Below are positions 23,914 to 52,070 of a DNA stretch of 60,000 nucleotides, one piece after another (the first letter of the stretch is position 1; each line of letters begins with the position of its first letter). The position numbers and the translations under genes are program-made. The notes beneath the pieces were generated by a model. The model worked only from the letters and a program-made list of their open reading frames with translations. It was not told the DNA's origin and did no database searches. Source of the DNA: Mobula hypostoma (lineage: Eukaryota); the NCBI RefSeq assembly GCF_963921235.1, contig NC_086097.1, positions 47,308,001 through 47,368,000 of the forward strand, in the 5' to 3' direction.

Positions 23914-24126
23914 TGTTTTGGTTTGTAATTCCAAAAACTAATTGAAAGAAAAACGCCGGAGCTGGGATGTTTTGTCTACTTAATTTTTCTTTAGTGAGGC
24001 GCTCACGTATGATGTGGTGGCATAATGACATATGCCATTCACATACTTTTACATATAACCTGTAAACAAAGAATACATAATCAAACAAAATATTTACAAT
24101 ATTACTGAAATATTAAATATATGACA
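23914..24126 (-). repeat. 3' LTR of the Gypsy element
   Basis: TG...CA ends, abuts the PPT, homologous to the LTR at 38494-38747. Confidence 0.8.
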
Positions 24127-26117
24127 CTGTTCCTCCTCCTCCTTATTTAACTATAAACTCTAACCCTAATGCACCTCAACTCAAATATGTAACGTATTGC
24201 TCTCTAGTCACCTAAGTATAAATAATAAACATATATACACATACAGTATACTATATAATACAACTACTATATAGACATCCACAGCATAGTAAATTTTAAA
24301 TTGCCCCATTTAAAGCTAAAGATTTAATCACTGTTGAGGATTTCCTACTCTTGTGGGAGAACATTTTTCCTGAAAAGGGAGTGGAGGTCACTCTGCTTGG
24401 CAGGTGAGACTTGCGGCTGTGAATCTGGGGCCCCTCCATGGTGATTGTAGGAGTTGATTCCAGGACTGCAGGAAGTGGTTCCTACAGCTTTGGATACCTT
24501 TCTTCTGGATGTGTTGGCATTCCAAACAGTGCATAGGAAGATACTAGATCTTCTGATCTACCCCAGGCCACCAGACAAAGCTTCAAGCCAATGCTTCATT
24601 TTTACCATATCTAGCTGACCAGCATCTAGCTCCTCCAACATTTTAACTCTGAGCTTGGATGGTACAACAGCTCTCAATCCCCACATAAGGCAGCCCCTTT
24701 CAAGGGCAAGTTCATTCCAGCGTTTGTAAAAATGAAGCAACAGAAATTTTTGCTGCATAGTCAAGCCCATTTCAGTTTCATGTAGACCTGAGACAGTGTC
24801 GGGCATTTCTGGTTTCCCTTTGGATAATCTCTGCCATAATAGGGAGAATATGTTAAGAAGAGTGTCTTTTTTAGTAAATTTTTCAGATATTTCCTTTAGC
24901 AAGGATAACCAGGACAATCCATCAGCATTTCCGTTAGTTGTCCTCTTGAATCTGATCTTGTAATTGTGTGTCCTCCAAGAAACAGAGCCCATCTCTGCAT
25001 TCAAGCTGCTGCTGGTGTGGAACACCTTTCTGTGGATTGAAAATGGACACAAGTGGTTTTATGATCAGTAATGAGGGTAACCTCTCTCCCATGCAAGTAT
25101 CCTAAACCAGAGTGAATGGCATGACTTCACTCATAACAAGTGAAGTGACTGCACCTATATCATAAGGCAAGGTTTCACAGCCAAGCTTCACCGGACAATG
25201 TGGATCCCAATGTGTGAGTACAGTGTCTGCTAGCACCATTTTCTTTGCTTTTAGAAAGCCACCTCACATTGCTTCATCCATTGCCATTTCTTCCCAATCT
25301 GTAGTAATGAGTTCAAGGGGTGGAGCACAATTGCCAGGATTGGCAGGAACCTGTTGTAGTAATTGACAAATCCTAAAAAGTGTCAAACTGTGACATGTCC
25401 TTTGGCCTTGGGGCATCTAGCACTGCTTGAATTTTCTCAGCACACTTGTGTAATCCTTGTGCGTCAATAGTGTGACCACAGTAAGTGATGCTTGCTTTAA
25501 TTAAGAATTCATACTTGTTGCATCATGCTTTGAGCCCATAATCTTCTAATTTTTTTAAACATTGTCTTGAGATTTTGGAGATGTTCCTTATCACCCTTAC
25601 CGGTAACAAAAGTATCATCCAGGTAACACAGAGTGCCTGGACTGCCTTGCAGCATCTGGGACACAGCTTTTTGTCAGAGTGCATGTCCAAAAACAAGCCT
25701 ATTATAGTGAGAAAGCCCTTTGTGAGTGTTTATGGAGAGGTGGACTCTTATTCCATTTCCATCTGTAAGTTGGCCTCAGCTAAGTGCACTTTAATGAAGT
25801 GTTTTCCTCCAGAAAGACTTGCAAAGATATCCTTTATTCTGAGAAGTGGTATTGATCTACTTTCAGTATTGAGTTGATAGTGATGTTAAAATCACCACTG
25901 ATCCTGACATCGTTCTTGGCAACTGGAGCATTTCCTTTGAAACAATTCCTTCAGCCTCCATGCAATCTAGCTCACTGGCTATGTAATCATGGATGGTATA
26001 AGGATCCGAGCAGGCTTTGTAAAGCTTGGGTGTGCCATTTTCATTTAACACTATTTTACCCTTGATACGTTTGAGTTTTCCAATGCCACCTTTGAATACT
26101 GCTGTGGAATTATCCAG

Positions 26118-26455
26118 TTATCATCATCATGTGCCATATTGTGTGGCGTGGGTGCTCAGGGTCTCCATGACCATGATTCTTCCTGGCAAATGTTTCTACT
26201 GCCCTTCTTCTGGGCAGTGTCTTTACAAGACAAGTGATCGCCACCATTATCAATACTCTTCAGAGATTGTCTGCCTGCATCAGAGGTTGCATAGCCAGGA
26301 CTTATGATATGCACCAGCCGTTCATACGGCCATCCACCACCCTGATCGGGGGGCTAAGCAAGTGCTACACGTTGTCCAAGGCTGACCTGCAGGGAAGCAG
26401 AGGGAAGGAATGCCTTACCCTCCTTTGATAGAGACTTAACTCTGCACTGCCACAC
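26118..26455 (-). mobile_element. short retroposon (RTE-related SINE-like) inserted in Gypsy pol
   Basis: Interrupts pol between protease and RT; has an (ATG)n-type tail at ~26119-26130. Confidence 0.45.
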
Positions 26456-27502
26456 TTCCTTTGATTTCAGTTGACTCTGTTGCAGGGGATGTGGCATGCA
26501 AGTGGCCAATCATAGCCCCGCAATGCTGGCCCTTCTGGTTTTACCACATACAAGCCCCATGTGGCTTGTTGGTTGTTGTATTTCACTGTTACAAATGTCG
26601 TTCCCACCGGAGATAGCATTTCCCCAATATAAGTTTTTAGTTGGATATCTGCAGGCTTTAGTTCAGTATGTTGGAAATGCATTTCAAGTTCGTTTTGTGG
26701 AGTGACTGAAACAGCGGAGCCAGTGACCAATTCCATTTTAATTAATTCGCCGCTCACTTCTGGTTTAAGCCATATTGCTTGTCTCTTGTTAGTTATCACA
26801 TTGTAAATTTTAAGGCTATCCAGTCCTATGTCACTCTCATCATTGTCAGATTTTTCATCAGCAGCGTATAGATTAGTGCTTGTTTTGAAACTGCAACTTG
26901 ACTTTTTCTTTTTTTTTCCCTTCCCCAGCCAAGTTTGTGGATGTTGAAGATAGGTGGAGGGGCAGGTAGTGTTGAGGAAGCTGGGAGGCTGCAAAGGACT
27001 TGGGCAGATTAGGAGAATGGACAAAGAAGTGGCAGATCGAATACAGTGTATGGAAGTGTATGGTCATGAACTTTGGTAGAAGGAACAAAAGTGTGGACTA
27101 TTTTCTAAACAGGTAGAAAGTTTAAAAATCTGAGGTACAAGGGGACTTGGGAGTCCTCCTGCAGGATACCCTGAAGGTTAACTTGCAGGCGCAGGTGGTG
27201 GTGAGGACGACAAATGTAACTTTAGTATTAATTTCAAGAGGACCAGAATATAAAAGCAAGAATCTAATGATGAGGCTTCACTGGTGAGGCCTCACTTTGA
27301 ACTTCATGAGCAGTTTTGGACCTCTTATCTAAGAAGGGACGTGCTGATATTGGGAAGGGTTCAGAGGAAGTTCACGAGAATGTTTCCAGGAATGAAAGGA
27401 TGATTGTATGAGGTGTGTTTGATGGCTGTGGGTCTATACTCATTGGAACTTAGAAGAATTAGTTGGGGGGTTAATCTCATTGAAACCTATCAAATATTGA
27501 AG

Positions 27503-29420: not shown

Positions 29421-30061
29421 ACAAGTACATAATAACCCAAATGATCTCATGCTCTGCAGAAACTCCTGAAAGGCCCCGCTCACTTTTCAATTTTACTACT
29501 CTCCATAACTCATGATCTCAAACTCTGAATTTTACTTGATCTTAAATAAATTACAAAAAGAATGGAATAACTAGATTTAACATTTATGAATATTAGACAA
29601 TTCCGGTGCTAATGAAATTGTTGCAAAAAACAACTATTCTCAACACTGGTACCACACAAGACTTCATCCTTAGCCACCAACCCTATACCCTGTACTCCCC
29701 ATGACCGGATGGCCATATTCTGCTCCAGCTGCAACTGCAAGTTTGCAGATGATACTACCATAATGGGCCAAATCCAGAGTATGAAGGGAGATAGAGAGAC
29801 TAGTGACATGATACCATAACAATAACCTTCTTCTCAATGTCAGCAAAACTAAAGAGCTGGTCGCTGAATTCAGGAAAGGGGGTGGTGCACCAACTATCTC
29901 CTGTCTACATCACTGGTGCTGAGGTCGAGCAGGTTGAGAGCTTCAAGTTCACTGGAGTAAACACCACCACAAGCCTGGCCTGGTCCAGTTATGTCTATGC
30001 CACAGCCAAGAAAGCTCACCAGTTTCTCTACTTCCTCAGAAGGCTAAAGAAATTTGGCATG

Positions 30062-30905
30062 TTTTGGTATCAGTTTGTGATTATCATGTATACCAACATA
30101 CAGAGAGTAGCTTGCCTTACATACTGTTTATTCAGATCAAATCATTATACAGTGCATTGAGCTAGAACAAGGTAAAGTAATAACAATGCAGGATAAAGTG
30201 TAAAAGCTACTGGAAGAATTGCAGTGCAGGAAATGATGAAGTGCAGGATCATAATGGGATAGATTGTGATGCCAAGTGTCCGTCTTATCACACAAGGGGT
30301 CTGTGTAAGAGTCTGTAACATCTTATCACACAAGGGGTCTGTGTAAGAGTCTGTAACATCTTATCACACAAGGGGTCTGTGGAAGAGTCTGTAACAGTGG
30401 GCCAGAAGCTGTCCTTGAGCCTGGTGCTTTCAGGCTTTTGTATCTGATGGAAGAGGAGAGAAGAAAGGATGTCCAGGGTGATTGAGATCCTTGATTATAT
30501 TAGCTTTTGCTGCCACAGAAGTACAGTATAGACAGAGCCCATGAAGAGAGGCTGCTTCCTGTGATGTGCTGAGCTGTATTCACAACTCTCTACCAAGGCA
30601 GCGAGAAGTATACACAAAGTCAATGGAGGGAAGATGGATTTCTGTGATGTGCTGAGCTGTGTCCACAACTCTGCAGTTTCTTGTGGTCAAGAGCAGAGTA
30701 ATTGCGATACCAAGCCATTACACATCCTGTCAGAATGGTATATCAATAAAAATTGGTAAGAGTCAATGGGGGACGTGCTGAATTTCTTAAACCTCCTGAA
30801 GAAGTAGCGGCTTGGGGAGATTTCATGCCATGACATCAACGTGGTTGGATCAGGACGGGGTATTGGTGACGTACAGACCTAGGATCTTGAAGTTCTCAAC
30901 CCTCC
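30062..30905 (-). mobile_element. Rex1-type LINE 3' fragment, antisense
   Basis: aatttcttaaacctcctgaagaagtag is antisense YFFRRFKKF; antisense 3' UTR at ~30070-30280. Confidence 0.7.
30283..30396. repeat. 38-bp tandem repeat, 3 copies
   Basis: tcttatcacacaaggggtctgtgtaagagtctgtaaca x3, one substitution in copy 3. Confidence 0.95.
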
Positions 30906-31512
30906 CAACCTTTGTTCCCTTTGACTGTCACCAATTTTTATCAATGCACCTATCCAGATGCATCAGAGCTTGGCATGGCAACTGCTTTGTCCTTGACCAC
31001 AAGAAACTGCAGAGTTGTGGACACAGCTCAGCACATCACAGAAATCCATCTTCCTTCCATTGACTTTGTGTACACTTCTCGCTGCCCTGGTAAAGCAGCC
31101 AGTATAATCAAAGCCCCCACCCACCCTGGATATTCCCTCTTCTCCTTCTCCCATCTGGCAGAAGATACTTGTAACACCAGGTTCAAGGACTGTTTTGCTC
31201 CTGCTGTTATAAGACTATTGCTTGTTTCCTTAGAGTGATAGGAGTGCCTCTTGACCTCTCAATCCACCTTGTTATAATCTTGCACAGTATTTTCTACCCT
31301 GTTCCTGTTATTCTGCAATCTGTTATTGTTTCATCTTATACTGTATTACCTTAAAACACGATTATAGTGAAAAGATCTGTATGAACCGTAAGCAAGGCAA
31401 ACTTTTTACTGCATCTCAGTATGTCGCAATAATAAACAAATTTGACAATTGATTTGCCAATTAAATACTGTACAAGGAACAGTAAATGAAGATCTGAAAA
31501 CGAAGTAAATAT

Positions 31513-31579
31513 AAAAAATGCTTTTGTAGCACATCAACGCATTTTAAAAATGTATTGATGTGCTACAAAAGCATTTTTT
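31513..31579. repeat. palindrome with perfect 25-bp arms
   Basis: aaaaaatgcttttgtagcacatcaa (31513-31537) and its exact reverse complement (31555-31579). Confidence 0.95.
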
Positions 31580-32476
31580 TCTATTTTTAAATTTTTGACC
31601 AAAGGCAAACAAATATTTTATTCTTTGACTGGGTTTTCATTGAGGCTCCTAGTTCTCTTTGTTTTCATTTTGTATGGATCACTAATTTACATCTGTTGTA
31701 TATATTCTGGGTTTAGTCACCAGTTGATTCAAACTGATAGCTGTGACCTTGTTTCTTTCCAGCTACATACAACCAAAAAGTACTTTTTAAATTTATAGTT
31801 TACACAGATTGCGAGTGACAGGGTTGCTTAGTGTTAACGGGTGAGAACTCTTATGACAAAGGATTTCTGTAGGGTGGAAACAATCAGGGCTCATTAGCAA
31901 TTTTATTTCAGATTTTTAAACAGATGGTCGCCTTAACTAACATACAACTGTCTATTTGAATTATGCCCAATGAAGGTTTAGTTAAATTCCTTTTATTCTT
32001 CAATACTTTAGACTTAACTCCTTATAAATTGATGAATAATCCTCGTTTTCACACTTTTCCTCCAGTAAACTAAAATAGTAGGATTATCTCATTAGGCTTA
32101 GTTAAAACTCAATCTTTGGACATGTACAATTTTTAGCAAATTTCTTGAGAAACAGGGATGGCAATTTTACTTCTATACCGTATGCTTTTGCAATTAATTA
32201 GAATATATTTCGAGTAGCTATCAATTAAGTTAAATGAAATGGAAAAACAATCCTTCAGTAGATTTGGAAAGAATGGGGAAATATTTTACACTCTCATGTG
32301 TGTGTAAAGTGGCAAAATTGCCAATTCAGGGAATATGTGAAACCTGTTACTCTACTGCCACATTCTTTTATTGTAAGAAATAATGGGCTCTATGCTTAGG
32401 AAAAAATGATATCAAGAACAATTGTAATCATTTTGACAGAGAACTTCCTTGCCCAGGATAACAAGTATTATAAGGA

Positions 32477-32671
32477 ACACACACAAAATGCTGGAGGAAC
32501 TCAGCAGGCCAGGCATCATCTAATGAAAAAAGTACAGTCAACATTTCAGGCCAAAATCCTTTGGCAGTCCTGTTAATTTTTTCCATAGATACTGCCTGGT
32601 CTGCTGAGTTCCGCCAGCATTTTGTGTATGTTGCTTGGGATTTCCAACATCCGTATATTTTCTCTTGTCAA
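32477..32671. mobile_element. palindromic PLE-derived mini element (two opposed termini)
   Basis: acacacaaaatgctggaggaactcagcaggccaggca ... tgcctggtctgctgagttccgccagcattttgtgtatgt; 11-bp TSD TATTATAAGGA at 32466-32476 and 32672-32682. Confidence 0.85.
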
Positions 32672-33259
32672 TATTATAAGGAGATATTTATACATTTGTA
32701 TACAGTTTAGTTACATGTTCCTCAACTGAGCACATGCTAAAAGCATGCTGGGATAATTTGTTTCTCTTGCCCAAGTGCTTACTGCTGGTGCCCCAGTATA
32801 TCACAATGCATTCTACATAATAGTTGCTGAAAGATAGCTTCTTTTGCAACATTAATATTATGGCACAATTAATTATTAGTACCACACAGGAAAGAAAACA
32901 AATGACAAAATTCTACCAAATATTGCAGTGTAATCCTCAGTAACTTAAAGATTTAGCTTATGGAAAGAAAATAGTTTGTATTTGTATAGCATCTCAAAAA
33001 ATATCAAAATGTCCTTAAATATTTTATGGCCAATTAAGATACTGCTAAGGTACAGGTGATCACCATGTTCCAGCTAGACTAAAATTCCCCTTTCTAGAAT
33101 TTACAAATTATTGCCCAAAATCTGAGATGAGAAATAAAATTAGTTCTCATGGAATTTATGTTTTTAAATAAGTAAACAATTATTATTTTCAACTTGTGTT
33201 TCTTGACACAGCTTCATGTTACAGAAACTCATGATACAAACAAAATCTTGGAACACAGT

Positions 33260-33360
33260 AACACACACAAAATGCTGGAGGAACTCGGCAGGTCAGGCAG
33301 CGTCTATGGAAATGAGTAAACTGTCGACATTTTGGGCTGAGACTCTTCTTCAGGAAGACA
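33260..33360 (-). mobile_element. PLE terminus with degenerate hammerhead
   Basis: acacacacaaaatgctggaggaactcggcagg...gtcgacattttgggctgagactcttcttcagga. Confidence 0.75.
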
Positions 33361-33469
33361 GTTCTTCCACGATGCAGAGTTCACCTGTATAGAATTCGCC
33401 ATGTTTTATAGTATTGTTTAAAGGATAAACATGAACAATAATCCCCCTCCTTTTTACAAGCAGTGCTTT

Positions 33470-33832
33470 GGGGTCTGAGAGTCAGTGAGTCCGCTAGGGA
33501 AGTCTGGGCCCAGTGTCTGCAAAGCCTCGAGACTGCTGGAAGCTTAAGACAGTCTGTCCTGGGGTTAGAGGATTGTATACGTGCATGTGTTTCGGAGGGA
33601 AGCAGGAAAGGGGCTATTTTTGCTGTTGCTGCTTTGTCACTAGCTATGTTCTGTTTGGTTGTTTTCTGTGCTGTTCTGCTGAGTGTGGTGGGCATGCTAC
33701 GTTGGTGCTGAAATGTATGTCGACACTTGCGAGCTGCCCCTAGCAAACCCTCGGGTGTGTTGGTTGTTAACACAAACGGCGCATTTCACTGTTTGTTCCA
33801 GTGTACACGTGACAAATAAATCTGAATCTGAT
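33470..33832 (+). mobile_element. SINE/LINE 3' remnant
   Basis: Ends gcatttcactgt...gtgacaaataaatctgaatctga, a tandem-tailed retroposon end. Confidence 0.5.
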
Positions 33833-36795
33833 TGATGAGATTGTTGCATTCTTATCTGCAGAGTGGAACCACTGACAGGACAGCACTGTCTTAGCCAGAT
33901 CATTAGATAAGGACAACCCTATAAACTGATGCAGCCATTAGGGAATGTTAGTGAACATCCCATCTTTAGGTATCTACCTGTAATGATTGCTGATTGTACT
34001 GCACCTTCCCTATGTCCATCCAGCAGGTAGCAGTAAACTGGAGTGACCAAACTTGCAAAGTGTTTCTCCCATTCAAGAATTCAGTTAGAATGAATGACTA
34101 GTTCCACCGCTCTTTGATCTGGGTAGAGCCTGTTACACTTTAGCACAGGGGTAAAATCAGTCTGCATATGACCTAGAGTTACAAGTTGTGTTTGCACCTG
34201 TTAATGAACACCATCGCTGCTGTAAATGAGCCACTTAAATGTTTATTTGACACATCGCACTCCTCAATTTCAAACTATATTTTCCTGCAGATATAAATGT
34301 CAGGAACCTATTAGTAAAATCTCATGGTTTTCATTCATATTCCCAAACTGATGAATATTTAAGCAGATTGTGGGCAGGTTGGTTGTAGAAGGATGAGTTT
34401 GCATTGCAATCTCGGATATCCTGCTTCCAGTGACATGGCTGGTGAATTACTTCACACCATTCACTGCGGGTCCTCTATGGAGCAGCTCCTGCGACGTGAC
34501 TGCTTTGTTACAGGAGCAGCTGCAATGCTGTGAGTGAAAATCCCTGCTCGTATAATGGCAATGCAGGCATTGCAGTAAAGCACTAAATTTAACAATCGAG
34601 CTCCAATGTGAGCATTGCTGCTGAGGTCTCCAATATTTTCATTTGTTTTTAGGGTCTGGGAATTTCTGGCAAGGTCACAGACCCTTCGAGGGATCTGGCT
34701 GGGAAATTACTACACTGTCGGCCTTCTGCTGACAGTACTTCCACACTACTGCTGAGTGGGGTTCACAGGTTGTAAACCCAGCTTATAGTGAAGGAATGGA
34801 GATGTATTTTTGGTGTGATTTGGTGGAGAGCTTGCAGTGATAGTGTCCTATTCACCTTGAAGCTTTTGTGCTATTTGCTGATTGAAGTTATGGGTTTGAA
34901 AGGTCCTGTTTGCAATACTAAGTAAACAACTGCAGTCATTTTATAGATGATAAACTCAGCAGCCAGCGGTGGGGGAAGTGAACGCTGCTGCAGGGAACTA
35001 TTAAGCCCACTCAATGCATTTAAAGAAGGCTTTTAAATGTCAATTATAAACTCCAGTTTCAAAACATAGTAACATCAATAGCTGAGAAAGAAGCAAATAT
35101 GTTTTGTGCTTAGGGACCAGCTGAGAAGAAATTCCAATGCACTTAAGTTTCCCTATTACACAGACATTCCTCCTCATGGGAAGGTATGACAGTTTAGGTT
35201 TTACAGTGATGCGCTGCAGGAAGAAATAAATCTGCAGTAGTCTGAGTAAAGGGTAGATACAGCATTGCTATTGATTGCAGTTAACAAGGATTCCTTAACT
35301 CTCTCTCTTGGGTTGTTACTAGCATTTCATTCACAATCTTAAAATAACTAGATTATATTTTGCATTGTGTAATTTCAATGAGAATTACTTATAGCTACTC
35401 AATATAGAAATAGCAAAAGTTACAACAAAGTGCAAAGAAAATATATAATTAAACTAATTAACCAGTAATCCTTCAATCTTCTTGATGTCATTTACTCCAT
35501 ATTATACAAGATTTTATAGTTCTTGCATCTCACTACATTTTAGAAGCACATGAATCTTTTATCATTTCTAACATAAAACTTAAAAAAGAATTAATGTTTT
35601 TTTTTATCCCCCAAATTTCTCTACAAATAAGTTGTAGGGTAACCTTCTGGGTGTGACTTCACTGGAGCTTGTGATATCTTTATAGCCATGTGGACAAATT
35701 TAAAGTCGTACTGTATTCCTTTCTATCTGGATGTTGACGGGATGAGGGAGGAGAGGTAGTAAAATTCAGGTTATGGTGAATCAGTAGACAATAAAATTGA
35801 AAATCAGACTCAGAAATAAGTGGTTGCTCATCCATTGCTGTCAGATTAGTACATACATGCTTTGTGAAGTATCAGTCTAATTTTGGAACAGCAAAATCCA
35901 CTAATTGCAGAGAAGACTTCTTGCACTTGTAATTTAAATGTTGTTCAAGTACAAAGTCTGTAATTCACTGACTTTTAATTTACTCCATATATGTTTTCAG
36001 TTTTTCAATGGAAGTGAGGTAAAGTAGTAATTTTATTTTGTAATGAAAAGCTTTATTTAAGGTATCTTTTAGCTGATACAAAATCCTATGTAGATTTTTT
36101 TAAGCGTTCTTCTTGAGCAAGGCTGGATTTATTATTGATTCCTAATAATTTAAAGGTCAATGATACTTTTTTTTATGACTATAGCATGGTAGGGAACTTT
36201 AGAGGACATTAGGGGTCAACCACACACCACAGAAGTGGAGCCATTTGTAAGACAGACCTCATTAGTAAAAGCTCGGTTCTCTCCCTCGAGACAAAGTAGT
36301 GAATCAGATGAGGTAGCAACATGAATGACACCTCCTCCATCTTTGTAATACTGTCTAAAAATGATAATAAAATATTATCAATAATACAATGAGAGCTAAA
36401 GTATTGTATACTACTAGATTTTGAGTTACGGATTTCTTTTGGAAATATAAATTTTAAACAGCTAAATACAAATTATATCTGTGAGATTATTGCATGTGTA
36501 TACTGAAGCTGAGCAAATATGACACTATGTGTGATATGTCTATGAATATTTGTCAACTTTGTTCATTTGAAAATTCAATTTCACTTTTGGGGATTTAAAA
36601 ATGTAAGCATAAAATTGTGGGTTTTAATGCAAGATAAATCTTCCACTTTAAAAAAAACTTTATTCTCAGTTTATTCAAGGCCAACTTCAATTTGTTAAAT
36701 GTAATAAAATAAAAAATGCAGATCAGCTTTAATCTTTAAAGTAGTAAAGCAGTGAAAGTCAGCTTCTGCAGAATAACCTCTATTGAATTTTCCAT

Positions 36796-36809
36796 GTTGC
36801 TATGGCGAT
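36796..36809. promoter_or_regulatory. RFX X-box-like motif
   Basis: GTTGCTATGGCGAT with nearby catagca and atagcaa half-sites. Confidence 0.4.
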
Positions 36810-38121
36810 GCATAGCACAGGTTTCACCAATAGCAATGACAGATAAGTGGTGGAATGGTGATGTCATGCCAACATTTGAATGACACTGTGCCCTCTATCA
36901 CGGACAATGGATTGCAGCACACACATTTTTAATGATTGCCTTGCCTTTCCTATAGGCAAAATGTCAACTACAAAGTGACCCAACATCCATCTTGAAGCTT
37001 GGTGGATTATTTGAAACTGAAGAATAGAACTATCAATCAGAAAAAGTAACATTTACAATATATTAGAATTGGAAAAATACAACATAGGTCCTTTCTCATC
37101 AACTAATCCTCAGGAGAATTCTTACTTAATATTCTAACCTTTTCCCTCTAAGGAGGGAAGCTAAGACTAGGAAAAGCTGGTTATAAAAGTTTCCTTAGCC
37201 TGAGAGCACTAACACATTACCAAGTTTCTTTTCTAAAATAAACACCACTATCTAAGACTCTCTGCATCACAACCAGCACTTGCTGACACAGCAGCTAAAT
37301 TGACCTGCAGATTCTTTTTCTGAAACTTGGCACATAATTATATAAGCCCCCTCTGATGACTTTTATACTGTTTAATATTTATTAATAAGATAGATTAATG
37401 TTCAAAGATTATCTTAAAAATCCTCTATGCACAGAAATAATCGATTATTTGGTATTTATTTTTTTTAAAGTCTTTCCTCCTTGCCAATCCCTCCACCTAA
37501 ACTCCCACCTATACAATCTTCAAGACTAAACAGGTTTGGAGATGAGATGAAACTCATGCCCTTATTGACCCAAAGATTAAAATGTGGCTTAGATTTCAAG
37601 TTCTTTTTGCAAGGTACTGATTTAGTTAGCACAAACAAGCTATTGGCAGTGTAACAATAAACAATCTAAATAAGGGTTTCGAGTCAGCAGGATGTTGTTT
37701 GGGTGAAGGCTGTCAAGTAAGGTTTAAATTAGAGCGTACAGCCTTTTTGGTAATTTGAGAAAACTTAGTCAGAGGTTGGTGCTTGGTCTACAGAAAAAGA
37801 AATTATTTGCAGAGACCCTTTGCTCTGGTTCTTTCAACAATTTTGTAAAGTGCATCTCTAAAAGTCAGTTGAAATAATTGGATATGTGCATACAAAGATA
37901 TCCTAAATTGTTGGAAGGCTCCTCATTAATGTTTACTGCAGTCCTTTGTGTTTTCAGTCATGGTTCCCACAACGTTCAGTTACACAGCTCCAGGCACAAT
38001 ATAATGACTTTTTGTTTTCCACAAGTTACCCGCAATTGCAAAGATTTCAAGGGGGCATTGATTGCCTTGTCGCTTCACTAAATGGAGACTAGGCAAAGTG
38101 GGACATAAGCCACATGTGATG

Positions 38122-38135
38122 GTTACCATGGAGAT
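38122..38135. promoter_or_regulatory. RFX X-box-like motif next to an E-box
   Basis: GTTACCATGGAGAT preceded by CACATGTG at 38111-38118. Confidence 0.4.
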
Positions 38136-38493
38136 TCCGCCCATTAAGGCTCGTGAGAAGAATAGCTATAGAAAGCTGTGCCGTACATTAGAGACCAAAT
38201 AAATTGAAGTTTTGCTGGTGTTGCTGCGAGACCATAAGTATGTGCGCAGATAAAGGATTATAAATGATGTCCCTGTCATGTAGAAAATGGGCATTTCTCA
38301 GCACAAAAGATTCCAGGATAAATTTCAGAAACTTTGATCTTAGCAACAATTCTTGAATTAGAATAATAGATTTTGTTAGTGGGATTGGATGGTTTGCCAT
38401 GCACAATGCTTTACCCCTTTAATTTTGTATATGAAATCTAGCACTGCGATGATAAATAACGTCTGAAATAAATGGATCATTTGTTAGTGTTAT

Positions 38494-38759
38494 TGTGGAG
38501 TATTTAATATTTCAGTGGAACTTGAATAATATTGTAAATGTATTGTTTGATTAAGCATTCTTTGTTAATTCTTTGCATAATTCAGTATAAGTTATATGCA
38601 AGAAGTACATGAATAGCATCCGTTATCACGCCACCATATCATACAAGAGCGCCTCATGAAAGAAAAAAAGAAAAAAAATTAAGTAGGCAAGTATCCCAGC
38701 TCCTGTGTTTTTCTTTGAATTAGTTTCTAGAGTTACAAAATATAACAGTGGTGACGAGG
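38494..38759 (+). mobile_element. Gypsy 5' LTR plus primer-binding site
   Basis: Homologous to the reverse complement of 23914-24126 (tatttaatatttcagt, gagcgcctca, atcccagctcc, ttagttt); ends ...ataaCA at 38747, followed by gTGGTGACGAGG. Confidence 0.8.
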
Positions 38760-38760
38760 G

Positions 38761-38904
38761 TGGGATGAAGGTAGAGAAGAAATTTTAAATAAAGGACAGT
38801 CTAAGAGTACTTGGGGTAAGCTATACAAGGTCATTGATTCATCGGATGTTATAATTCAAGTGTTGGATGCCATAGATCGAACGGGAATACATTCTGCCCA
38901 TATA
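38761..38904 (+). pseudogene. GNL2: decayed fragment of nucleolar GTP-binding protein 2 (GNL2/NOG2)
   Basis: Translates [48 protein letters not shown], matching recalled GNL2 [43 protein letters not shown]; conserved DARDP is mutated and no splice sites flank it. Confidence 0.85.
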
Positions 38905-39139
38905 CATGTCAATGTTTTTAGATGAAAGCCAGGATTTCATTTTTCACTTTATTACAAATTAGATGGTTTCACATTTTAAGAATAATAATGGAACAACACA
39001 TTATCTAAACAAACATTCAAAATGCTATCCTTAATAAATATACAAGTAGAAACCTAATTCAACAATTTTTAAAACATCTTACAAGCAATTCCAAACTCTA
39101 CTTGGCCTATCATAGGACACTACTATTGATAAATATGAA

Positions 39140-39745
39140 AGTTTTCTCCCTTCCTTTGTTTCAGCATTTCATTGAACTTCCATCTTATTTTTCTCACTTC
39201 TTGTCAGCCTTGCTCTTCCAAACTTTTGTTTGTGTCTCTCCTATGTCATTTTTGTCAAGATTTCCCTTCTGTCTCAATTCCTTTCCTTTCTCTTGATTCC
39301 CTTTTCTATAAGATTGCTTCTGAAGTTGTTTCATCTGATGAGTTTCTCTTTTGACTTTTTTCCTATTCTTAATGTTTCACTTTCTTCTTTCTTGCATGTG
39401 TTTTTCTTCTATCCCCATTCCTTTCTTCTTCTATTGTTTCCTCATTTATCTCTCACACTCTCTCTCTCCCCCTTTTTCTCTCTACATTCATGTCTACCAT
39501 GTCCATGCTCTCTCCTCCCTCCTCCTTCCTCCCCTTTTTTTACTCACCAACTCTTTCATTCCCATCTCCTTCTATTCTTTTCTTCCTACTGCTATTATCT
39601 CTTAATTTTCTCTTATTTTGCTGTCACCAGCTTTGTCCCTCTTTACTCTACGCCATTCCCACCACCAACTCTGTATATTCCATCCTCTGTTTTGGATCTC
39701 CCTTTTCTCCATTTTACTTGTACCTTTTTGCCTTCCTGCTCCTAA
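39140..39745. repeat. pyrimidine-rich low-complexity tract
   Basis: ~600 bp strongly C/T-biased on the + strand. Confidence 0.75.
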
Positions 39746-40489
39746 AATAGAAAAAAAAACATATTGGAACAGATGAACCAAAACTAACCCACTTTATTTG
39801 GACTGGGGCTCTGATTTAAGGTCTACATCAGAGATCCTGAAGTCCTTAATGAGAAGAACACTGTTAACTGAAGAGCCATGTAGCACGACTCCAAGAATTA
39901 TTCATCGTTAACCTCAATTTCAATGAAGTGCCAGTGAAAGCCAAGGGTAAAAATGGATGATGTCACTGTCATGCAAGGATGACGGACTATGTTTAAACAA
40001 ATTCAATGTTTGGAAAAATGAATCAGAATCACATTTATTATTACTGTCTTGCATGACATGAAATTTGTTGTTTTGCATTCTCATCCCTGAACTATAATGC
40101 CATCTTGTTGGTACGTTTGCAGATGTCAGTACAATTCAATGAAACCATGCAATAACATTGGAGGTGTTTGTTTTAAGATGAGCTTTGAAAGAAAGTTATA
40201 GATGAAGTCTAGCTGTTTCTTCCCAGTGAGGGCTTGCTGGCAGCTGACCCACCATGGATTGCTGTAGTATGCATCATTACACTGACTTACCCACTCAACA
40301 GTGGGATTAGTTAGGAACATTGCCTTCTCAATAATTTTTGGCAAGGATTAACATACAGCACAGGAGACTAAGGAGAGAAAGAAAACTTCTGAAATAAAAG
40401 CATATCTGTTTTGTTCTAATTAGCAACCCACCCACAAAATCATAACTTAAAAGCCAAATATTCTCTCAGTTATGCTGGTAGGACACTAA

Positions 40490-41220
40490 TTACGGGGTGC
40501 GATAAGATCACAGAGAGGCTTCAGGAGATAGGATAAGTGAGTGGGTGAAATATTGCACAAGGGAAATAATGTGGTTATCCACTTTGTTGGGAGCAACAGA
40601 AGAGCAGAATATGTTTCAAAGCCTGGGAGACTGGAGAATGTTAGTGTTCAGTGGGTCTTGGAGACCCTTATATGCAAATAGCTGAAAGCTAACATTTAAA
40701 AAACATAGAATTAGAGGTTTGCCTTCAAGAAAACTGGAGTTTAGTAGCTTACAATTCTTGCTATGGTCATATAGGGCTTAGAGGATGTTACATCTGAAGT
40801 CCTGCTTACTGAAGTAGGAATATAATGAAGAATTGGAATTCCTGCCTTTGTGGGAATTACTTAGAGCTGCTGGACCTGCTTTGTTAAAAGTTTGTAGGAA
40901 GGAGTGGAGATCTGTGCAATGCATAAACTCAAGGTTTGTGTGTCAGATGTTGGCAGCACCAGAACCAAGGGTCAAAGTTTAAGAAGCTGAGTTTGGCCAT
41001 GCTGGCAGATATGAGAAGTTGCTTTAAAATCTTTGTAAAATTGAATTCACTCGCCATGAGAATCATGAGTGTTCAGTCATTGATTATATTCAAAGCAAAG
41101 ATCAATAGTTTTTTAAGTACTAAGGGCATTCATAGATTTGACCAAAATACAGGAAAATGAAGTTGAAAATGATCATGTTGTTTTTGAATAGTACTGAAAG
41201 CTTGAAATGGTAAATCATCT
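40490..41220 (+). mobile_element. very old CR1 3' fragment
   Basis: gtggttatccactttg, cagtcattgattatattcaaagcaaagatcaatag..ttaagtactaagggcat. Confidence 0.55.
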
Positions 41221-44200
41221 GTTGTTGACTCTCTTTCCAAGGTTGCTAAACCTGGTACTGCTTTTCATCAAAATCTCTTTTTGTTGGAAATTTGCTTCCA
41301 TTTTAAGATCCTTATATTATGTGAGTAAATTTATTTCAAACAAGCTTTGAATACTTGGTAATGAAGTTTTTACTATTTTTTTCTGGAAGTACTTTGCACA
41401 TTTGAGGAAAATATGATTTTTACAAGGTATTCTCAATATAAATTTCAAGAAAAGATTAAATCTTAGTTTAGTAATGTCTTTTTATTTGGACCATAATTTG
41501 ACATATATATGTACAGTACATCAAACTAGTTTTTTTAACATTTTGGATTATATAGAAACTTAAGCATTTGTTCCGCTGACCTACTAAGAAAAAAAAGAAT
41601 TAAGTTTTTATGAGAGAACAGTACTTACCATAATATTTGTTCTAATCACTCACATTTTATGAAAATGTTGATTTAAATACACAGAAAGCAGCTGCTCTGC
41701 TCACTGACTTTGAGAATTTCCAGTATTAATACCTAGTGCTCATGTGGATTTTCTATTTAATCAGAGGACTATTTAACTTCCTTGTAGATGTGTTCATTTT
41801 ATACCAATAATTAATTTGCAGGGGATAATCTAAAAAAACCAATAATTCTCTGTATGAGTCTCACTGCCAATTGTAAGTTATTTGTCTTTGATGTGATGAT
41901 CACTTTTCTCACTCTTTAAAGACTGAATAATAATCAGCAAAAATGTATAAAAACAGTTTGGGGATCATGCCTAAGTACTAATGTTTTGTTGAAAGGGAAA
42001 GACAGCTTTGTCTGTGCTGTACTCAGTAATTCACCAAGGACCTTTCAACAACACTTCCTTCCCGTGGCCCCCACTTCTCAGGAGGACAAATGCAGTGTCA
42101 ATACAGGACCACCATTTTTTTTAAAGTTCCTATTACAAATTCTGCTACCTTTAAAATATGAACATGTATTATTGTTTCCTGATTGCTGAGTCAAAATTCT
42201 GAAATGTTCTACCTACCACCTTTGTAGGATTATTGACCTTGCAGGTATATGTTACCTGCACTTCAGCTAACTGAGGGCTTAGTTCCATGTTTCCTTTGAA
42301 CTCCATAGGACTCCAGTTCTTAAGTTCCCTTTGCACTTACTTGCAATTATAGTTGGAAATGTGATTGCAAATCTAAAAACATCGAAAATAGGAGGGTACA
42401 ATGAAGACAATATGGTAAAAATCCTACTCGAGGACAGTGCATTCAGTATGTTAAGCACATTTATTTAAGATGTGTAGAAAAACAAATACAAGTAATATTC
42501 TTATCCCATTTTATTTACTGAATTCTAGCACAAATTAAACAAATATAGCATACTTTGATAAGGGAGCAACATCTGTTACTGAATTTTATGCCGTGTCTCA
42601 AATAATTGGGGAAAATAAAGATTATTGCAAGTAAAAAAGAAAATGCTGTACAATACTCAGCAGTTGAGGCAATATTTTTGGAGATGAGAGAATTAACATT
42701 TCAGTGTGAAGTCCTTGCATCTGCATATGGAGTATTACAAACAAACTTCTACAATATGTTCACTTCTGAGAAATTCACTCTACTGCTTAATTATTTTTTT
42801 ATTTTTCCTTTGATAGTTTCCCTTTTATTTGAATGAAATGTTCCTCATGAGAAAAGTAGCAAAGAACAGAAATCAAACCAAATCAAGTGAAGGGCACGAA
42901 GAGATATGGGGAGAAGACAGGAGATTGGGGCTGAGAAGCAAATGGATGAGCCAGGATGAAATGGCAGAGCAGACTCAATGGGCCAAATGGCCTCATTCTG
43001 CTCCTACATCTTATGAGTTTTGGATTTTGCATGGTTGATTAAGCAATAATGTTTAATAAACATACCTCTGCAAGCCTACATAATGTGAAACTTCTGTTTA
43101 ATGAAACCAAAAAAGACTGACTATGAGAGTTTAAAACTTTTATTTTCAAGATTATTTCTGTTGCTTGGTTTGTAAGATAATTCACAAAAGTAAAAGTCAT
43201 TTCTAAGTTCTGTTCAAATAACTTAAATCCAATAATCCTGGAATAATCATTATCTCTAATAAAAAAGAATAAAGTATTGGTTTCACTCTATCAAAATAAA
43301 TTTCCTTTCTTCCACCCATTATCCTCTCCCTCATTCTACATGCCTGAACACATCTCTCTCTTTTTTAAGTCTGCAGGTGTGTCCCAGGCTGGGAACATTA
43401 ATTGTTCCTCTTTTCACAGATGCTGTGTGACTTCTGAGTTCTTCAAAACTTCTTATTTCTATTTCAGATTTTCAGCATATGCTGTTTACATGATCATCAA
43501 AGTATTTACTTCCTTGCATCCATGTAAGTAGTTAATCAAAGGGCAATTGAACTGAACCTCTTAAAGTAATCTCCTAATACATTGATAAAATATTCACCAG
43601 ATAATCATGAAGGGTGAATGCTGAAAAGATGCTGAATTATTAATTCATTTGACATTGTTTTCATGATGGAATTTGATCTCATATCTTTGGAATTGGATCT
43701 TGTATCTCTGGGCCGTTTGTCCTGAACTCTGTATTCTAGGCCTGTAATTTAAGCAGTCCTGGCACATTACAATACACACACAGGCTATTAGACTTGACGG
43801 GTCTCTGCCAGACTCCTCCCACACCAGCAGAACTTTCCATTCCTTTCTCCCTCATGCGGTTAACCATTTTCCGTGCTAACATATGGTTCATAAGATGGCA
43901 CTCAGATTTGTACCCATAGTAATTGCCCATTGCCTCACAGTCTTCCTGGCTCGCACTTTGAGGAAGACATAATTTCAGTGATAAAAATATCACTGTATCA
44001 CATATTGTTAAAATAAGACAATATTTTGATAAAATACCCTTTCACCTACAATGTATACAAGTCCTAAAATGGATAACATGAATTGTAATTATATAATTTA
44101 TAAATATTTGGAAAATAATTCTTTATTTAAATATCTTCTAGCTCAAAAGTTAAAAAAAAACCTTTAAAATTTTACTGTATTAAACGTCTAAAGTCATTTG

Positions 44201-44464
44201 ATAATTCATTTTGTATTGTTTTGTGCAAAACAAACTTTGATTATGCTTAAACAAAAATCAAATTACTCAACTTGAATTGTCATTCTTCATGCTTTGCTTG
44301 CACCCATCAAGGACTGCAGCAGTTCGAGAATGGTTTGCTTTTACTGCTGTGACCTTGTCAACATTTTCCACGTTCTCTGCACTCACAGAGTAAGATGTAT
44401 TTTCAAGTGGTTAAAATGCAGAGAATGCCTATCTATTGAAGATTCAGACTGTGCCCTGTACAAT

Positions 44465-44483
44465 GAGTGCCCTCTAGTGGCTA
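44465..44483 (-). promoter_or_regulatory. CTCF core motif
   Basis: Minus strand TAGCCACTAGAGGGCACTC closely matches the CTCF consensus. Confidence 0.5.
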
Positions 44484-44524
44484 TTGTGAACATTGTACAT
44501 TCAGAGTCAAAGTTGTACAGTCAG

Positions 44525-45200
44525 AAATTCAAAGTACATACATATCACCATATACAACCCTGAGATTTATTTTCTTGCAGGCATACTCAATAAATCCAAT
44601 AGCCATAATAGTATCAATGAAATACTGCAGCAACTGGGCTTTCAACCAGAATGCAAAAGACAATAAACTGTGTAAAAACAGAAAGAAAGAAATAATAATA
44701 ATAAATCAACAATAAATATTGAGATCATGAAATAAAGAGTTCTTAAAGGTGAGTCCATAGTGTGTGGGAACAGTTCAGTGACTGGGCAAGTGAAGTTTTC
44801 CCCTCTGGTTGTTGAGGGATAATAACTGTTCCTGAACCTGGTGGTGGGAGTCCTGAGTCTCCTGTACTTTCTTCCTGATGGTAGCAGCAAGAAGAGAACA
44901 TGACTCAGGTGGTGGAGGTCGCTGATGATGGATGCTGCTTTCCTGTGACAGCACTCTGTGTAGATGTGTTCACTGGTGGGGAGGGATTTCCCCATGATGG
45001 ACTGGGCCAGATCCACTACATTTTGTAGGATTTTCCATTCAAGGGCATTGGTGTTTCCATACCAGCTGGTGATCCCAGTCAATACATCCTCCACCACACA
45101 TCTATAGAAGTTTGTCAAAGTTTTAGATGTCATGCTGGATCTTCGCGAAGTCCTAAGGAAGTAAAGGTGCTATTGGGGCTTCCTTTGTAATTGCACCTAC
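44525..45200 (-). mobile_element. Rex1-type LINE 3' end
   Basis: ORF 44642..45133 TLTNFYRCVVE.VLTG.ITSWYGN...LLPSGRKYR....TTRFRNSYYP. Confidence 0.88.
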
Positions 45201-45377
45201 GATTTGATTCCTTTCACTCATCTGAAAGCATGTTCCAGGTATCAACCGCACTCCCGTATATATTTTTTTAAAACTTGCACCTCAGAACCCCTTTAAAACT
45301 TCTTCATTTCATCCAAAGCCTAAACCCTCTTGTTTTTGATGTCCCTACCATGGGAAAATTATTTTAACTATTAACCC

Positions 45378-45401
45378 TATATATATATATATATATATAT
45401 A
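45378..45401. repeat. (TA)12 microsatellite
   Basis: Direct observation. Confidence 0.95.
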
Positions 45402-45679
45402 CAGGATCTCTGGGGTAAAAAAGACCTGAATTGCAGAAATTCAACTTTATACGTGTTCTCCCATTTTTAAAGCATTTCTTCAAGCTAGTAAAAAATAATA
45501 AAATGTTTCATGGCATTCACTAATTACTTGTTACAGTATATATTCCATTAGTTTGATTATGGCTGGTGTTGGGTGATTATTAATTGAAATTAAAGAATTA
45601 TGATAAGTATACATAGACATAGAGTAATATGATATGGGAAACTTTTGAAAATGGTCATTTTCATCTGAGGGAGAAACTG

Positions 45680-45945
45680 GCTTATGGACAGAACCCTTAG
45701 TGCAGGGACCACCTGTACTAGTACTGGCCTGATACAGTATGTAGGCTGATGCCGAAGGTGCTTTGGGCAGTTTTACAGCCTGTCTGTACACTGCAGTGCA
45801 GTTTCCGTACCATGCAGCGATGCAGCGTGTTAGGATGTTTTCAACTGCATGTCTGTAGAAGGCCGTAATTATTCATGTATATAGCCCAGTTCTTTTCAGC
45901 TTCCTCAGAAGGCAGAGGCATTGGTGAGCTTTCTTGTCCTGAGGG
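45680..45945 (-). mobile_element. Rex1-type fragment
   Basis: ttttcagcttcctcagaaggcagaggcattggtgagctttctt is antisense KKAHQCLCLLRKLK. Confidence 0.6.
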
Positions 45946-45949
45946 GAAT

Positions 45950-46470
45950 GTCATAGCACAGGACAGGCCATTCGGCCCACAATGTTGTGCTGAAACAGCT
46001 AAAAAGCAAATCAAAAACACCCAAACATTAATCCCTCCGATGTAGACAATGTCCATATCTCTCCATCTTCCTTACATCCATGTGCCTATCCAAACACCTC
46101 TTAAAAGCCTTTAATGTATTTGCTTCTACCACCATACCAGGCAGCACATTCCAGGCACCCACCACTCTCCGAGTAAAAAAACTTACCCCTCACATCTCCC
46201 TTGAACCTACCAACCCTTCACCTTCAATGCATGTCCTCTGGTATTGGAATTTTCAAACCTGGGAAACACATATTCCCTGGTTATTCTAGGTATGCCTCCG
46301 TTAATCTTATAAATCTCTATCAGATCTTCCCTCAGTCATTCCAGAGAAAACAATCCAAGTTTATCCAGCCTCTCATGATCGCATAACCAGGCAGCATCCT
46401 GGTAAACCTCTTCTGTGCACTCTCCGAGGCCTCAACATCATTTCTGTAGTGGGACAACTTGACTATATGC
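45950..46470 (-). mobile_element. CR1 3' fragment
   Basis: Parallels 16040-16500. Confidence 0.85.
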
Positions 46471-51900: not shown

Positions 51901-52070
51901 AGGCAGAGATTGATAGGTATCTGAGTAGCCAGGGCATCAAAGGTTATGGTGAGAAGGCAGGGGAGTGGGACTAAATAGGAGAAAATGGATCAGCTCATGA
52001 TAAAATGGCGGAGCAGACTCGATGGGCTGAATGGCCTACTTCTGCTCCTTTGTCTTATGGTCTTATGGTC
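48996..52070 (+). mobile_element. young 5'-truncated CR1 with complete ORF2 region
   Basis: Full EN and RT domains; 3' tail (TCTTATGG)2 at ~52053-52068. Confidence 0.97.
49147..51974 (+). pseudogene. CR1 ORF2 (APE endonuclease-reverse transcriptase) with one stop and one frameshift
   Basis: LNARSI, ITETWL, SDHNMI, YLDFQKAFDKVPH, GVPQGSVLGP, FADDTK; TAA at 49642-49644 and a -1 shift near 50676. Confidence 0.95.

What the first reader, a model, noticed from the sequence alone, without database searches (positions are those of the whole stretch)
38494..38904. Gypsy LTR-PBS fused directly to a GNL2 mRNA fragment
Seen: an LTR ending at 38747, a PBS-like TGGTGACGAGG, then immediately 48 codons of decayed GNL2 in sense orientation. 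There is no gag, second LTR, polyA tail or obvious TSD. Known: LTR elements can capture cellular mRNA by RT template switching. Inference: a chimeric retrocopy formed at the PBS, possibly via microhomology, since gacgagggtg could belong to either partner. The same LTR family has a decayed internal copy at 23914-26925.
Basis: partly seen in the sequence, partly recalled or inferred. Interest (0 to 1): 0.7.

Follow-up and report, generated by a model that had tools for sequence, protein, structure and literature searches.

The report
Lone LTR fused to GNL2 exons
In a cartilaginous-fish genome, one end of a dead jumping gene is joined, exactly where its tRNA primer site ends, to a short intron-free piece of a host ribosome-assembly gene: an old, non-coding relic that most likely records a copying error of the element's reverse transcriptase.

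Summary
Observation confirmed and sharpened. A Mag-type Gypsy LTR (38494-38747) is followed by a primer site that matches the tRNA-Ser(GCU) 3' end at 16 of 18 bases. The match stops at base 18, where retroviral plus-strand strong-stop DNA ends (m1A58). Then come 143 nt of GNL2 (38762-38904): one whole 67-nt exon joined without its intron to 75 nt of the next, so it derives from spliced RNA. The last 11 primer-site bases match the host mRNA at 9 positions, which explains the join. The junction is single-copy, has no start codon, has decayed about 10%, and is shared by a related species. I found no gag-pol, second LTR, poly(A) or 5-bp target duplication downstream. Best reading (0.5): strong-stop DNA jumped onto a GNL2 cDNA instead of the element's own minus strand. 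Main rival (0.3): an ordinary double template switch at a natively long primer site, with the 3' half deleted later. 12 of 13 related elements have shorter primer sites (10-15 nt), but this family's own length is unsettled. It is a variant of known LTR-mediated retroposition: dead, and of mechanistic interest only.

The parts
38494..38747 (+). Gypsy (Mag-type) LTR, 254 nt, TG...CA, with no polypurine tract upstream (so a 5'-type copy)
   Evidence: 70% to LTR at 23914-24126; high-copy cover and family ends; 3' end fits the Mag C motif AYANAACA
38749..38766 (+). [quoted passage not shown]
   Evidence: 16/18 to the primer printed in PMC9072684; extension length 18; A58 numbering from standard tRNA structure (own knowledge) and PMC13191261
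38756..38766 (+). Microsimilarity between the primer-site end and GNL2 mRNA, 9 of 11, last 5 exact; it straddles a GNL2 exon-exon boundary (38762|38763)
   Evidence: loose-end letters of the RNA-like contig X18 record 24; chance per site 3.7e-5; boundary from L166
38763..38829 (+). One complete 67-nt GNL2 coding exon (exon 6 in recalled human numbering), decayed
   Evidence: L166 exon 429-495 between GT-AG introns; RNA-like contig
38830..38904 (+). First 75 nt of the next GNL2 exon, joined without the intron; cut off inside the exon
   Evidence: a second X1 contig with parental bases aligns only 38827-38904 (read from the from_end and depth columns); intron at this codon boundary in 7 of 12 loci printed
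23914..24126 (-). Related 3' LTR, preceded by a polypurine tract (about 24127-24144)
24127..26925 (-). Decayed internal region of a related Ty3/Gypsy element (protease, RT, RNase H, start of integrase; many stops and frameshifts; no match to the integrase core)
   Evidence: tblastn of intact gag-pol P0176 and P0121; weak Pfam RVT_1 and RT_RNaseH hits below cut-off; 1556 relatives at E<=0.001, with Gypsy domain order in P0130, P0176, P0233, P0253

Best explanation
A dead, single-copy chimera made by the reverse transcriptase of a Mag-type Gypsy element inside its particle, where spliced GNL2 mRNA was co-packaged and partly copied into cDNA. The plus-strand strong-stop DNA (U3-R-U5 plus 18 bases copied from the tRNA-Ser primer up to m1A58) made its obligatory second jump onto the GNL2 cDNA instead of the element's own minus strand. 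It paired through its last 11 bases (9 Watson-Crick pairs, one G-T wobble, one mismatch) and was extended into GNL2 in sense orientation. The product entered a germ-line chromosome before organisms A and H split. Either it entered as a whole element whose 3' half was deleted later, or as a one-LTR fragment patched into a break. It has since decayed neutrally. SHOWN: LTR, tRNA-Ser match ending at base 18, spliced origin, microsimilarity, single copy, presence in a relative, no start codon. INFERRED: co-packaging, that the tail was copied from the tRNA, the plus-strand jump, and the route of integration.
For: The join falls at tRNA base 18|19, the known stop of retroviral plus-strand strong-stop DNA (PMC13191261 passages). 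Sense orientation is what a plus-strand primer on a cDNA gives. The 9/11 similarity with an exact 3' 5-mer has chance 3.7e-5 per site and 0.08 per 2.2-kb mRNA; it is complete only if the element-side strand carried all 18 bases. Native sites in related elements are mostly shorter: 10-15 nt in 12 of the 13 loci with a tRNA-Ser site, among 22 loci examined. The 4 other family copies listed that run past the LTR end stop at 38754-38758 (primer-site base 6-10). Bases 38759-38761 fit the tRNA but match the mRNA at only 1 of 3. In Ty3, tRNA-tailed strong-stop DNA is an abundant dead-end product (PMC5371799 passages). Only one switch to the host RNA is needed. Decay looks neutral: 9 replacement and 4 silent differences among 13 (10 listed, 3 inferred).
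Against: 1 of 13 related loci (L216) has a native 17/18 site and 4 more reach 14-15, so a natively long site in this family is possible. The four family copies are a thin sample, chosen by the tool and possibly orthologous. Ty3 stops after 12 tRNA bases, not 18, so the 18-nt stop is borrowed from retroviruses. The join also lies within 1 nt of a GNL2 exon boundary, which this model treats as chance (roughly 3%, my estimate). No empty site was seen, so the integration route is untested. The mRNA used comes from a related organism (B), and the tRNA sequence is human.
Confidence: 0.5

Rival explanations
1. Ordinary LTR-mediated retroposition (double minus-strand template switch, Tan et al. 2016). 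RT left the element RNA for GNL2 mRNA, copied 143 nt or more, and switched back at a natively long (15-18 nt) primer site. Integrase inserted LTR-PBS-GNL2-internal-PPT-LTR, and the 3' half was later deleted.
For: Partial, 5'- and 3'-truncated, sense, poly(A)-less pieces with microsimilarity are the hallmarks of this class, and 4 zebrafish and chicken cases had lost the element on one side (PMC5131818). A native 18-nt site exists in the clade (L216). Unchecked notes report several mRNA-carrying Gypsy families in this genome.
Against: It needs the switch back to hit the last bases of a tRNA-occupied site out of about 4 kb. The 4 listed family copies stop at base 6-10. No 3' remnant is found: 38944-39350 has single-copy depth where covered, and there is no gag-pol or LTR similarity downstream.
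Confidence: 0.3
2. Independent events: a GNL2 cDNA fragment (made by a LINE or LTR reverse transcriptase) was patched by microhomology into a break just behind the primer site of an existing element, with loss of the element's interior.
For: Breaks in mouse zygotes capture spliced, poly(A)-less, doubly truncated cDNA with microhomology (PMC4516963 passages). No target duplication and no 3' LTR are seen.
Against: It needs a native 18-nt site, a break at that spot, and removal of the whole interior and 3' LTR. The decay of the LTR (other copies 82-88% alike) and of the GNL2 piece (90%) fits one age.
Confidence: 0.1
3. Splice capture as in retroviral oncogene transduction: an element in or near the GNL2 gene made an LTR-driven transcript that spliced from inside the primer site to the acceptor of the 67-nt exon, and this RNA was packaged and copied.
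For: The GNL2 piece starts at an exon boundary within 1 nt (38762|38763).
Against: The first 4 exon bases must continue the tRNA match by chance (1/256). The upstream exon's last 7 bases also match the primer site at 5 positions, which splicing does not explain. The similarity straddles the boundary, as expected for a mature-mRNA template.
Confidence: 0.07
4. DNA-level duplication of part of the GNL2 gene beside an LTR.
For: None beyond the short length of the piece.
Against: The intron at 38829|38830 is absent. The parental DNA contig aligns only from 38827 while the RNA-like contig runs through, and the intron is present in a teleost-type gene and 6 other loci.
Confidence: 0.02

Closest known systems
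LTR-mediated retrocopies of metazoans (Tan et al. 2016, PMC5131818; read: abstract, first two of eight parts of the text, Discussion, passages; 9 supplementary files searched by word, file 1 not searched)
   Same: Partial spliced mRNA piece, truncated at both ends, sense to the LTR, no poly(A), microsimilarity at the join; one Drosophila family switches near exon-exon junctions.
   Different: Element on one side only; the join is at the tRNA-length end of the primer site with no leader or gag; single copy, no second round of copying. The term PBS does not occur in that paper's main text or in the searched supplements.
Plus-strand strong-stop DNA and second-strand transfer of retroviruses and Ty3 (PMC13191261 and PMC5371799, passages read)
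   Same: Whole LTR plus 18 tRNA-complementary bases ending before A58.
   Different: Here the acceptor appears to be a host cDNA and the product is fixed in a vertebrate germ line. Ty3 copies 12 tRNA bases and does not pass them on.
RT-product-mediated double-strand-break repair in mouse zygotes (Ono et al. 2015, PMC4516963, passages read)
   Same: Doubly truncated spliced cDNA, no poly(A), no regular target duplication, microhomology.
   Different: In the passages read, the retrotransposon pieces were truncated and mostly lacked LTRs; here the LTR is complete and ends in a primer site.
Mag clade of Ty3/Gypsy elements (PMC3286476 and PMC3601003, passages read)
   Same: Short LTR, tRNA-Ser primer site, Mag C-like termini, Gypsy domain order in the related copy.
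   Different: No coding region and no 5-bp target duplication at this locus; clade placement was not tested by a tree.

Membership tests
LTR-mediated retrocopy (Tan et al. 2016) | Host piece derives from spliced mRNA | tested here: met
   intron at 38829|38830 absent
LTR-mediated retrocopy (Tan et al. 2016) | Microsimilarity at the element-mRNA join | tested here: met
   9 of 11, last 5 exact, at the 5' join; the 3' join has no known partner
LTR-mediated retrocopy (Tan et al. 2016) | No poly(A) tail; truncated at both ends | tested here: met
LTR-mediated retrocopy (Tan et al. 2016) | Same element on both sides, both LTRs present | tested here: not met
   no 3' LTR, PPT or internal sequence downstream; later loss cannot be excluded
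LTR-mediated retrocopy (Tan et al. 2016) | Further copying as a non-autonomous element (not in all members) | tested here: not met
   junction contig depth 15.2 against flank 13.4 in X1; one copy in X17
LTR-mediated retrocopy (Tan et al. 2016) | Co-transcription from the LTR | tested here: inconclusive
   only contigs of one guessed-RNA run of a relative were laid
Mag-clade Ty3/Gypsy element | Short TG...CA LTR with Mag-type termini | tested here: met
   254 nt; 3' end fits AYANAACA; the related copy's start fits TGTNATRT; this copy's start fits 6 of 8
Mag-clade Ty3/Gypsy element | Primer site for tRNA-Ser or tRNA-Leu | tested here: met
Mag-clade Ty3/Gypsy element | 5-bp target-site duplication | tested here: not met
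   left-flank 5-mer not repeated in 38870-39300; the right end of the insert is uncertain
Mag-clade Ty3/Gypsy element | RT phylogeny within the Mag clade | not tested
   no tree built; relatives show Gypsy domain order only
Captured plus-strand strong-stop DNA | Complete LTR plus tRNA-complementary tail ending before A58 | tested here: met
Captured plus-strand strong-stop DNA | Tail longer than the family's own primer site (tRNA-templated) | tested here: inconclusive
   4 family copies stop at base 6-10; 12 of 13 relatives have 10-15 nt and 1 has 18; no genome held
LINE-made processed pseudogene | Poly(A) tail, intact mRNA 3' end, target duplication | tested here: not met
   the piece ends inside an internal exon

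The most novel reading that the evidence does not exclude
A germ-line fossil of a misdirected second-strand transfer: tRNA-tailed strong-stop DNA primes on a host cDNA, so a retrocopy arises with one jump and may need only one LTR. If so, 'solo LTR + tRNA-length tail + host exons' is a recognisable and so far uncounted class of retrocopy, missed by pipelines that demand LTRs on both sides, and countable in ray genomes.
Probability: 0.4. Interest if true: 0.55.

Novelty: new variant of a known kind. Interest (0 to 1): 0.35.

Why it matters
The locus itself has no function in sight: 143 nt of GNL2, no start codon, neutral decay, one copy. Its value is as a mechanistic record. If the join was set by strong-stop DNA, it shows a route to gene-piece duplication that the double-switch model does not describe. 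It would also suggest that a vertebrate Mag-type reverse transcriptase stops at tRNA base 58 as retroviral enzymes do. Both points can be tested by counting such joins in a ray assembly.

Tried and rejected
No whole genome is held, so the family's primer-site length and other copies could not be counted directly. Family-specific DNA patterns found nothing in metagenome, genome or viral contigs. A looser pattern in viral contigs returned 120 stretches, of which 1 continued the tRNA match fully; the rest look like chance. Protein scans of viral contigs found no relative of the element, and a word-index search with the protease region found none among 47 candidates. No tRNA gene or Rfam family lies in the window. 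Expression: no RNA holder was listed. In the one guessed-RNA run laid, no listed contig bridges the LTR-GNL2 join; this is no evidence either way. In X9 nothing covers 38784-38810 or most of 38905-39051; I did not use this as evidence, although it may hide a longer copy. The apparent protein match to 38955 was rejected as extension into flank, because parental DNA contigs stop at 38904 and the mRNA matches 5 of the next 13 bases. The 4-mer TTAT as a target duplication (3 hits in 430 nt) was rejected as chance. No host gene context was found: 80 of 105 frames of 48 residues or more in 30000-46000 were scanned, and none reached a Pfam cut-off. A paper search for GNL2 exon structure gave nothing useful. 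Six literature searches (listings only, except the papers named) showed no report of a host retrocopy joined at primer-site base 18. That library holds only open-licence papers, so this does not show absence from print.

Full report
Observation. The window holds an LTR at 38494-38747, one spacer base, a primer-binding site from 38749 and then GNL2-like codons. The LTR is 179/255 identical to the 3' LTR (23914-24126, minus strand) of a decayed element whose interior matches protease, RT, RNase H and the start of integrase of intact gag-pol proteins. Relatives of that interior have the Ty3/Gypsy domain order. The termini and the tRNA-Ser site fit the Mag clade as described in PMC3601003 and PMC3286476 (passages); no tree was built. 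Laying 4 of the 24 listed runs on 37800-39350 shows the LTR as a high-copy repeat, with loose ends next to 38494 (other copies are preceded by a purine tract, this one is not) and at 38747.

The GNL2 piece. The 47 codons at 38764-38904 are 74-77% identical to shark and ray GNL2 and match human GNL2 192-237; nothing else in the window matches GNL2. A deep RNA-like contig of related organism B aligns without gaps at 38762-38887 with 13 differences. Its loose letters upstream encode the GNL2 residues that precede the piece in all ray and shark proteins printed. Of the 13 differences, 10 are listed and 3 follow from amino-acid differences; 9 are replacements and 4 silent, as expected for neutral decay. 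There is no in-frame start codon.

Spliced origin. A teleost-type GNL2 gene in a metagenome contig (L166) has GT-AG introns on both sides of a 67-nt exon; mapped to the window, the boundaries are 38762|38763 and 38829|38830. The second intron is also present in 6 other loci, so in 7 of the 12 printed, out of 80 fetched. In run X1, a second contig of depth 8.9 carries the mRNA's bases but aligns only over 38827-38904; I read this from the from_end columns, and the bin depths agree. That is the parental exon, ending at the expected acceptor. The window runs straight through, so the piece is one whole exon plus 75 nt of the next, copied from spliced RNA. DNA-level duplication is excluded. Exon numbers 6 and 7 are recalled, not from a call; isoform gaps fit two neighbouring recalled exon lengths.

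The join. Bases 38749-38766 match the tRNA-Ser(GCT) 3'-end primer printed in PMC9072684 at 16 of 18 positions (chance about 8e-8), and the next base follows GNL2, not the tRNA. Base 19 lies opposite A58 (own knowledge of tRNA numbering), where retroviral plus-strand strong-stop DNA ends (PMC13191261 passages). The last 11 of these bases match the mRNA at 9 positions, the last 5 exactly (3.7e-5 per site, 0.08 per 2.2-kb mRNA). The similarity straddles the exon boundary at 38762|38763, which favours a mature-mRNA template over a splice join. The coincidence with that boundary remains a point against my reading.

How long is the family's own primer site? This decides the mechanism and is only partly answered. 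Among 22 loci of related elements fetched from contaminated genome bins, 13 have a tRNA-Ser site: 10, 10, 10, 10, 12, 13, 13, 13, 14, 14, 15, 15 and 18 nt. Two pairs are the same family, three sites carry one mismatch, and for three loci the adjacent LTR end was not confirmed. So 12 of 13 are shorter than 18, but a native 18-nt site exists, and in some elements the gag start codon lengthens the match to 14-15. In the ray runs, the 4 listed family copies that pass the LTR end stop at primer-site base 6-10. This leans towards a short native site, but it is a thin sample chosen by the tool.

Copy number, age and right end. The contig across the join (38730-39350, 0 differences) has depth 15.2 against 13.4 for the left flank, so the chimera is single-copy; X1 may be the assembled sample and is not independent. 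Organism H (X17) has overlapping contigs 37951-38531 and 38502-39120 (46 differences, 6 gaps in 613 nt) that carry LTR, primer site, GNL2 piece and flank together. It shares with the window two replacements at arginine codons that are unchanged in all 13 proteins printed (38808, 38873), so the insertion predates their split. Organism C (X9) has the LTR start at the same site and an intron-less piece over 38811-38864. Downstream sequence is single-copy where covered and has no similarity to the LTR, to the related interior or to gag-pol proteins. No 5-bp duplication is found, whereas relatives L213 and L218 show one. No empty site was seen.

Mechanism. Best reading (0.5): within a particle, tRNA-tailed strong-stop DNA made its second jump onto GNL2 cDNA through the 11-base similarity. 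The product was integrated whole and later lost its 3' half, or was patched into a break as a one-LTR fragment. Rivals: an ordinary double switch at a natively long site with later deletion (0.3), a cDNA patch into an existing element (0.1), splice capture (0.07) and DNA duplication (0.02). The first two share the broader claim that the element's own reverse transcriptase made the chimera (about 0.8).

Comparison. It works like the LTR-mediated retrocopies of Tan et al. 2016 (PMC5131818) but fails the both-sides test, so I do not file it as a plain member; that paper does mention four one-sided cases. The word PBS is absent from its main text and from 9 searched supplementary files; file 1 was not searched, and tables held as pictures were not seen. 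Six searches of an open-licence library listed no report of a join at primer-site base 18. Unchecked notes from this scan describe several amplified mRNA-carrying Gypsy families and one LTR with an over-long tRNA tail in the same genome. These are leads only, but they suggest that this locus is a small, unamplified case of a process common in this genome.

Verdict. Real, old, non-coding and single-copy; a new variant of a known kind; interest 0.35. The most novel reading, a countable class of one-jump retrocopies, has probability about 0.4 and would merit about 0.55.

Noticed in passing
window 24127-26925 (-): The related Gypsy copy shows no match to the integrase core (hits stop at residue 995 of P0176), has about 390 nt between protease and RT where P0176 has 29 residues, and is cut at its 5' end next to a LINE-like repeat.
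   Followed up: partly
window 38811-38904, run X9: Organism C has an intron-less contig over 38811-38864 and two contigs over 38835-38904, all with parental bases at sites where the window and organism H are changed; they stop at 38904. This could be a longer or less decayed copy.
   Followed up: partly
window 39150-39750: Single-copy tract that is strongly purine-rich on the minus strand, with an acceptor-like site near 39745 (minus); no clean reading frame and no Pfam match.
   Followed up: partly
window 30283-30396 and 30588-31095: Three tandem copies of a 38-nt unit, and an element with 139-nt inverted arms (88%) 230 nt apart, MITE-like.
   Followed up: no
window 49645-51974 (+) and 8021-9127: Long open frames (345 and 434 residues; 365 and 336 residues) in repeated DNA, probably non-LTR retrotransposon remains.
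   Followed up: no
L216:2609-2626; L209 after 2539: One related element has a native 17/18 tRNA-Ser site and another a 10-nt site followed by a shifted tRNA-like tail, hinting that tRNA tails are sometimes inherited in this clade.
   Followed up: no
L201-L225: Several prokaryote genome bins contain full-length, sometimes near-intact Gypsy elements of eukaryotic type, most likely host contamination.
   Followed up: no
window 37983-38317, run X18: A 335-nt, depth-4 contig from a guessed-RNA run covers the left flank; it may be DNA or pre-mRNA.
   Followed up: no
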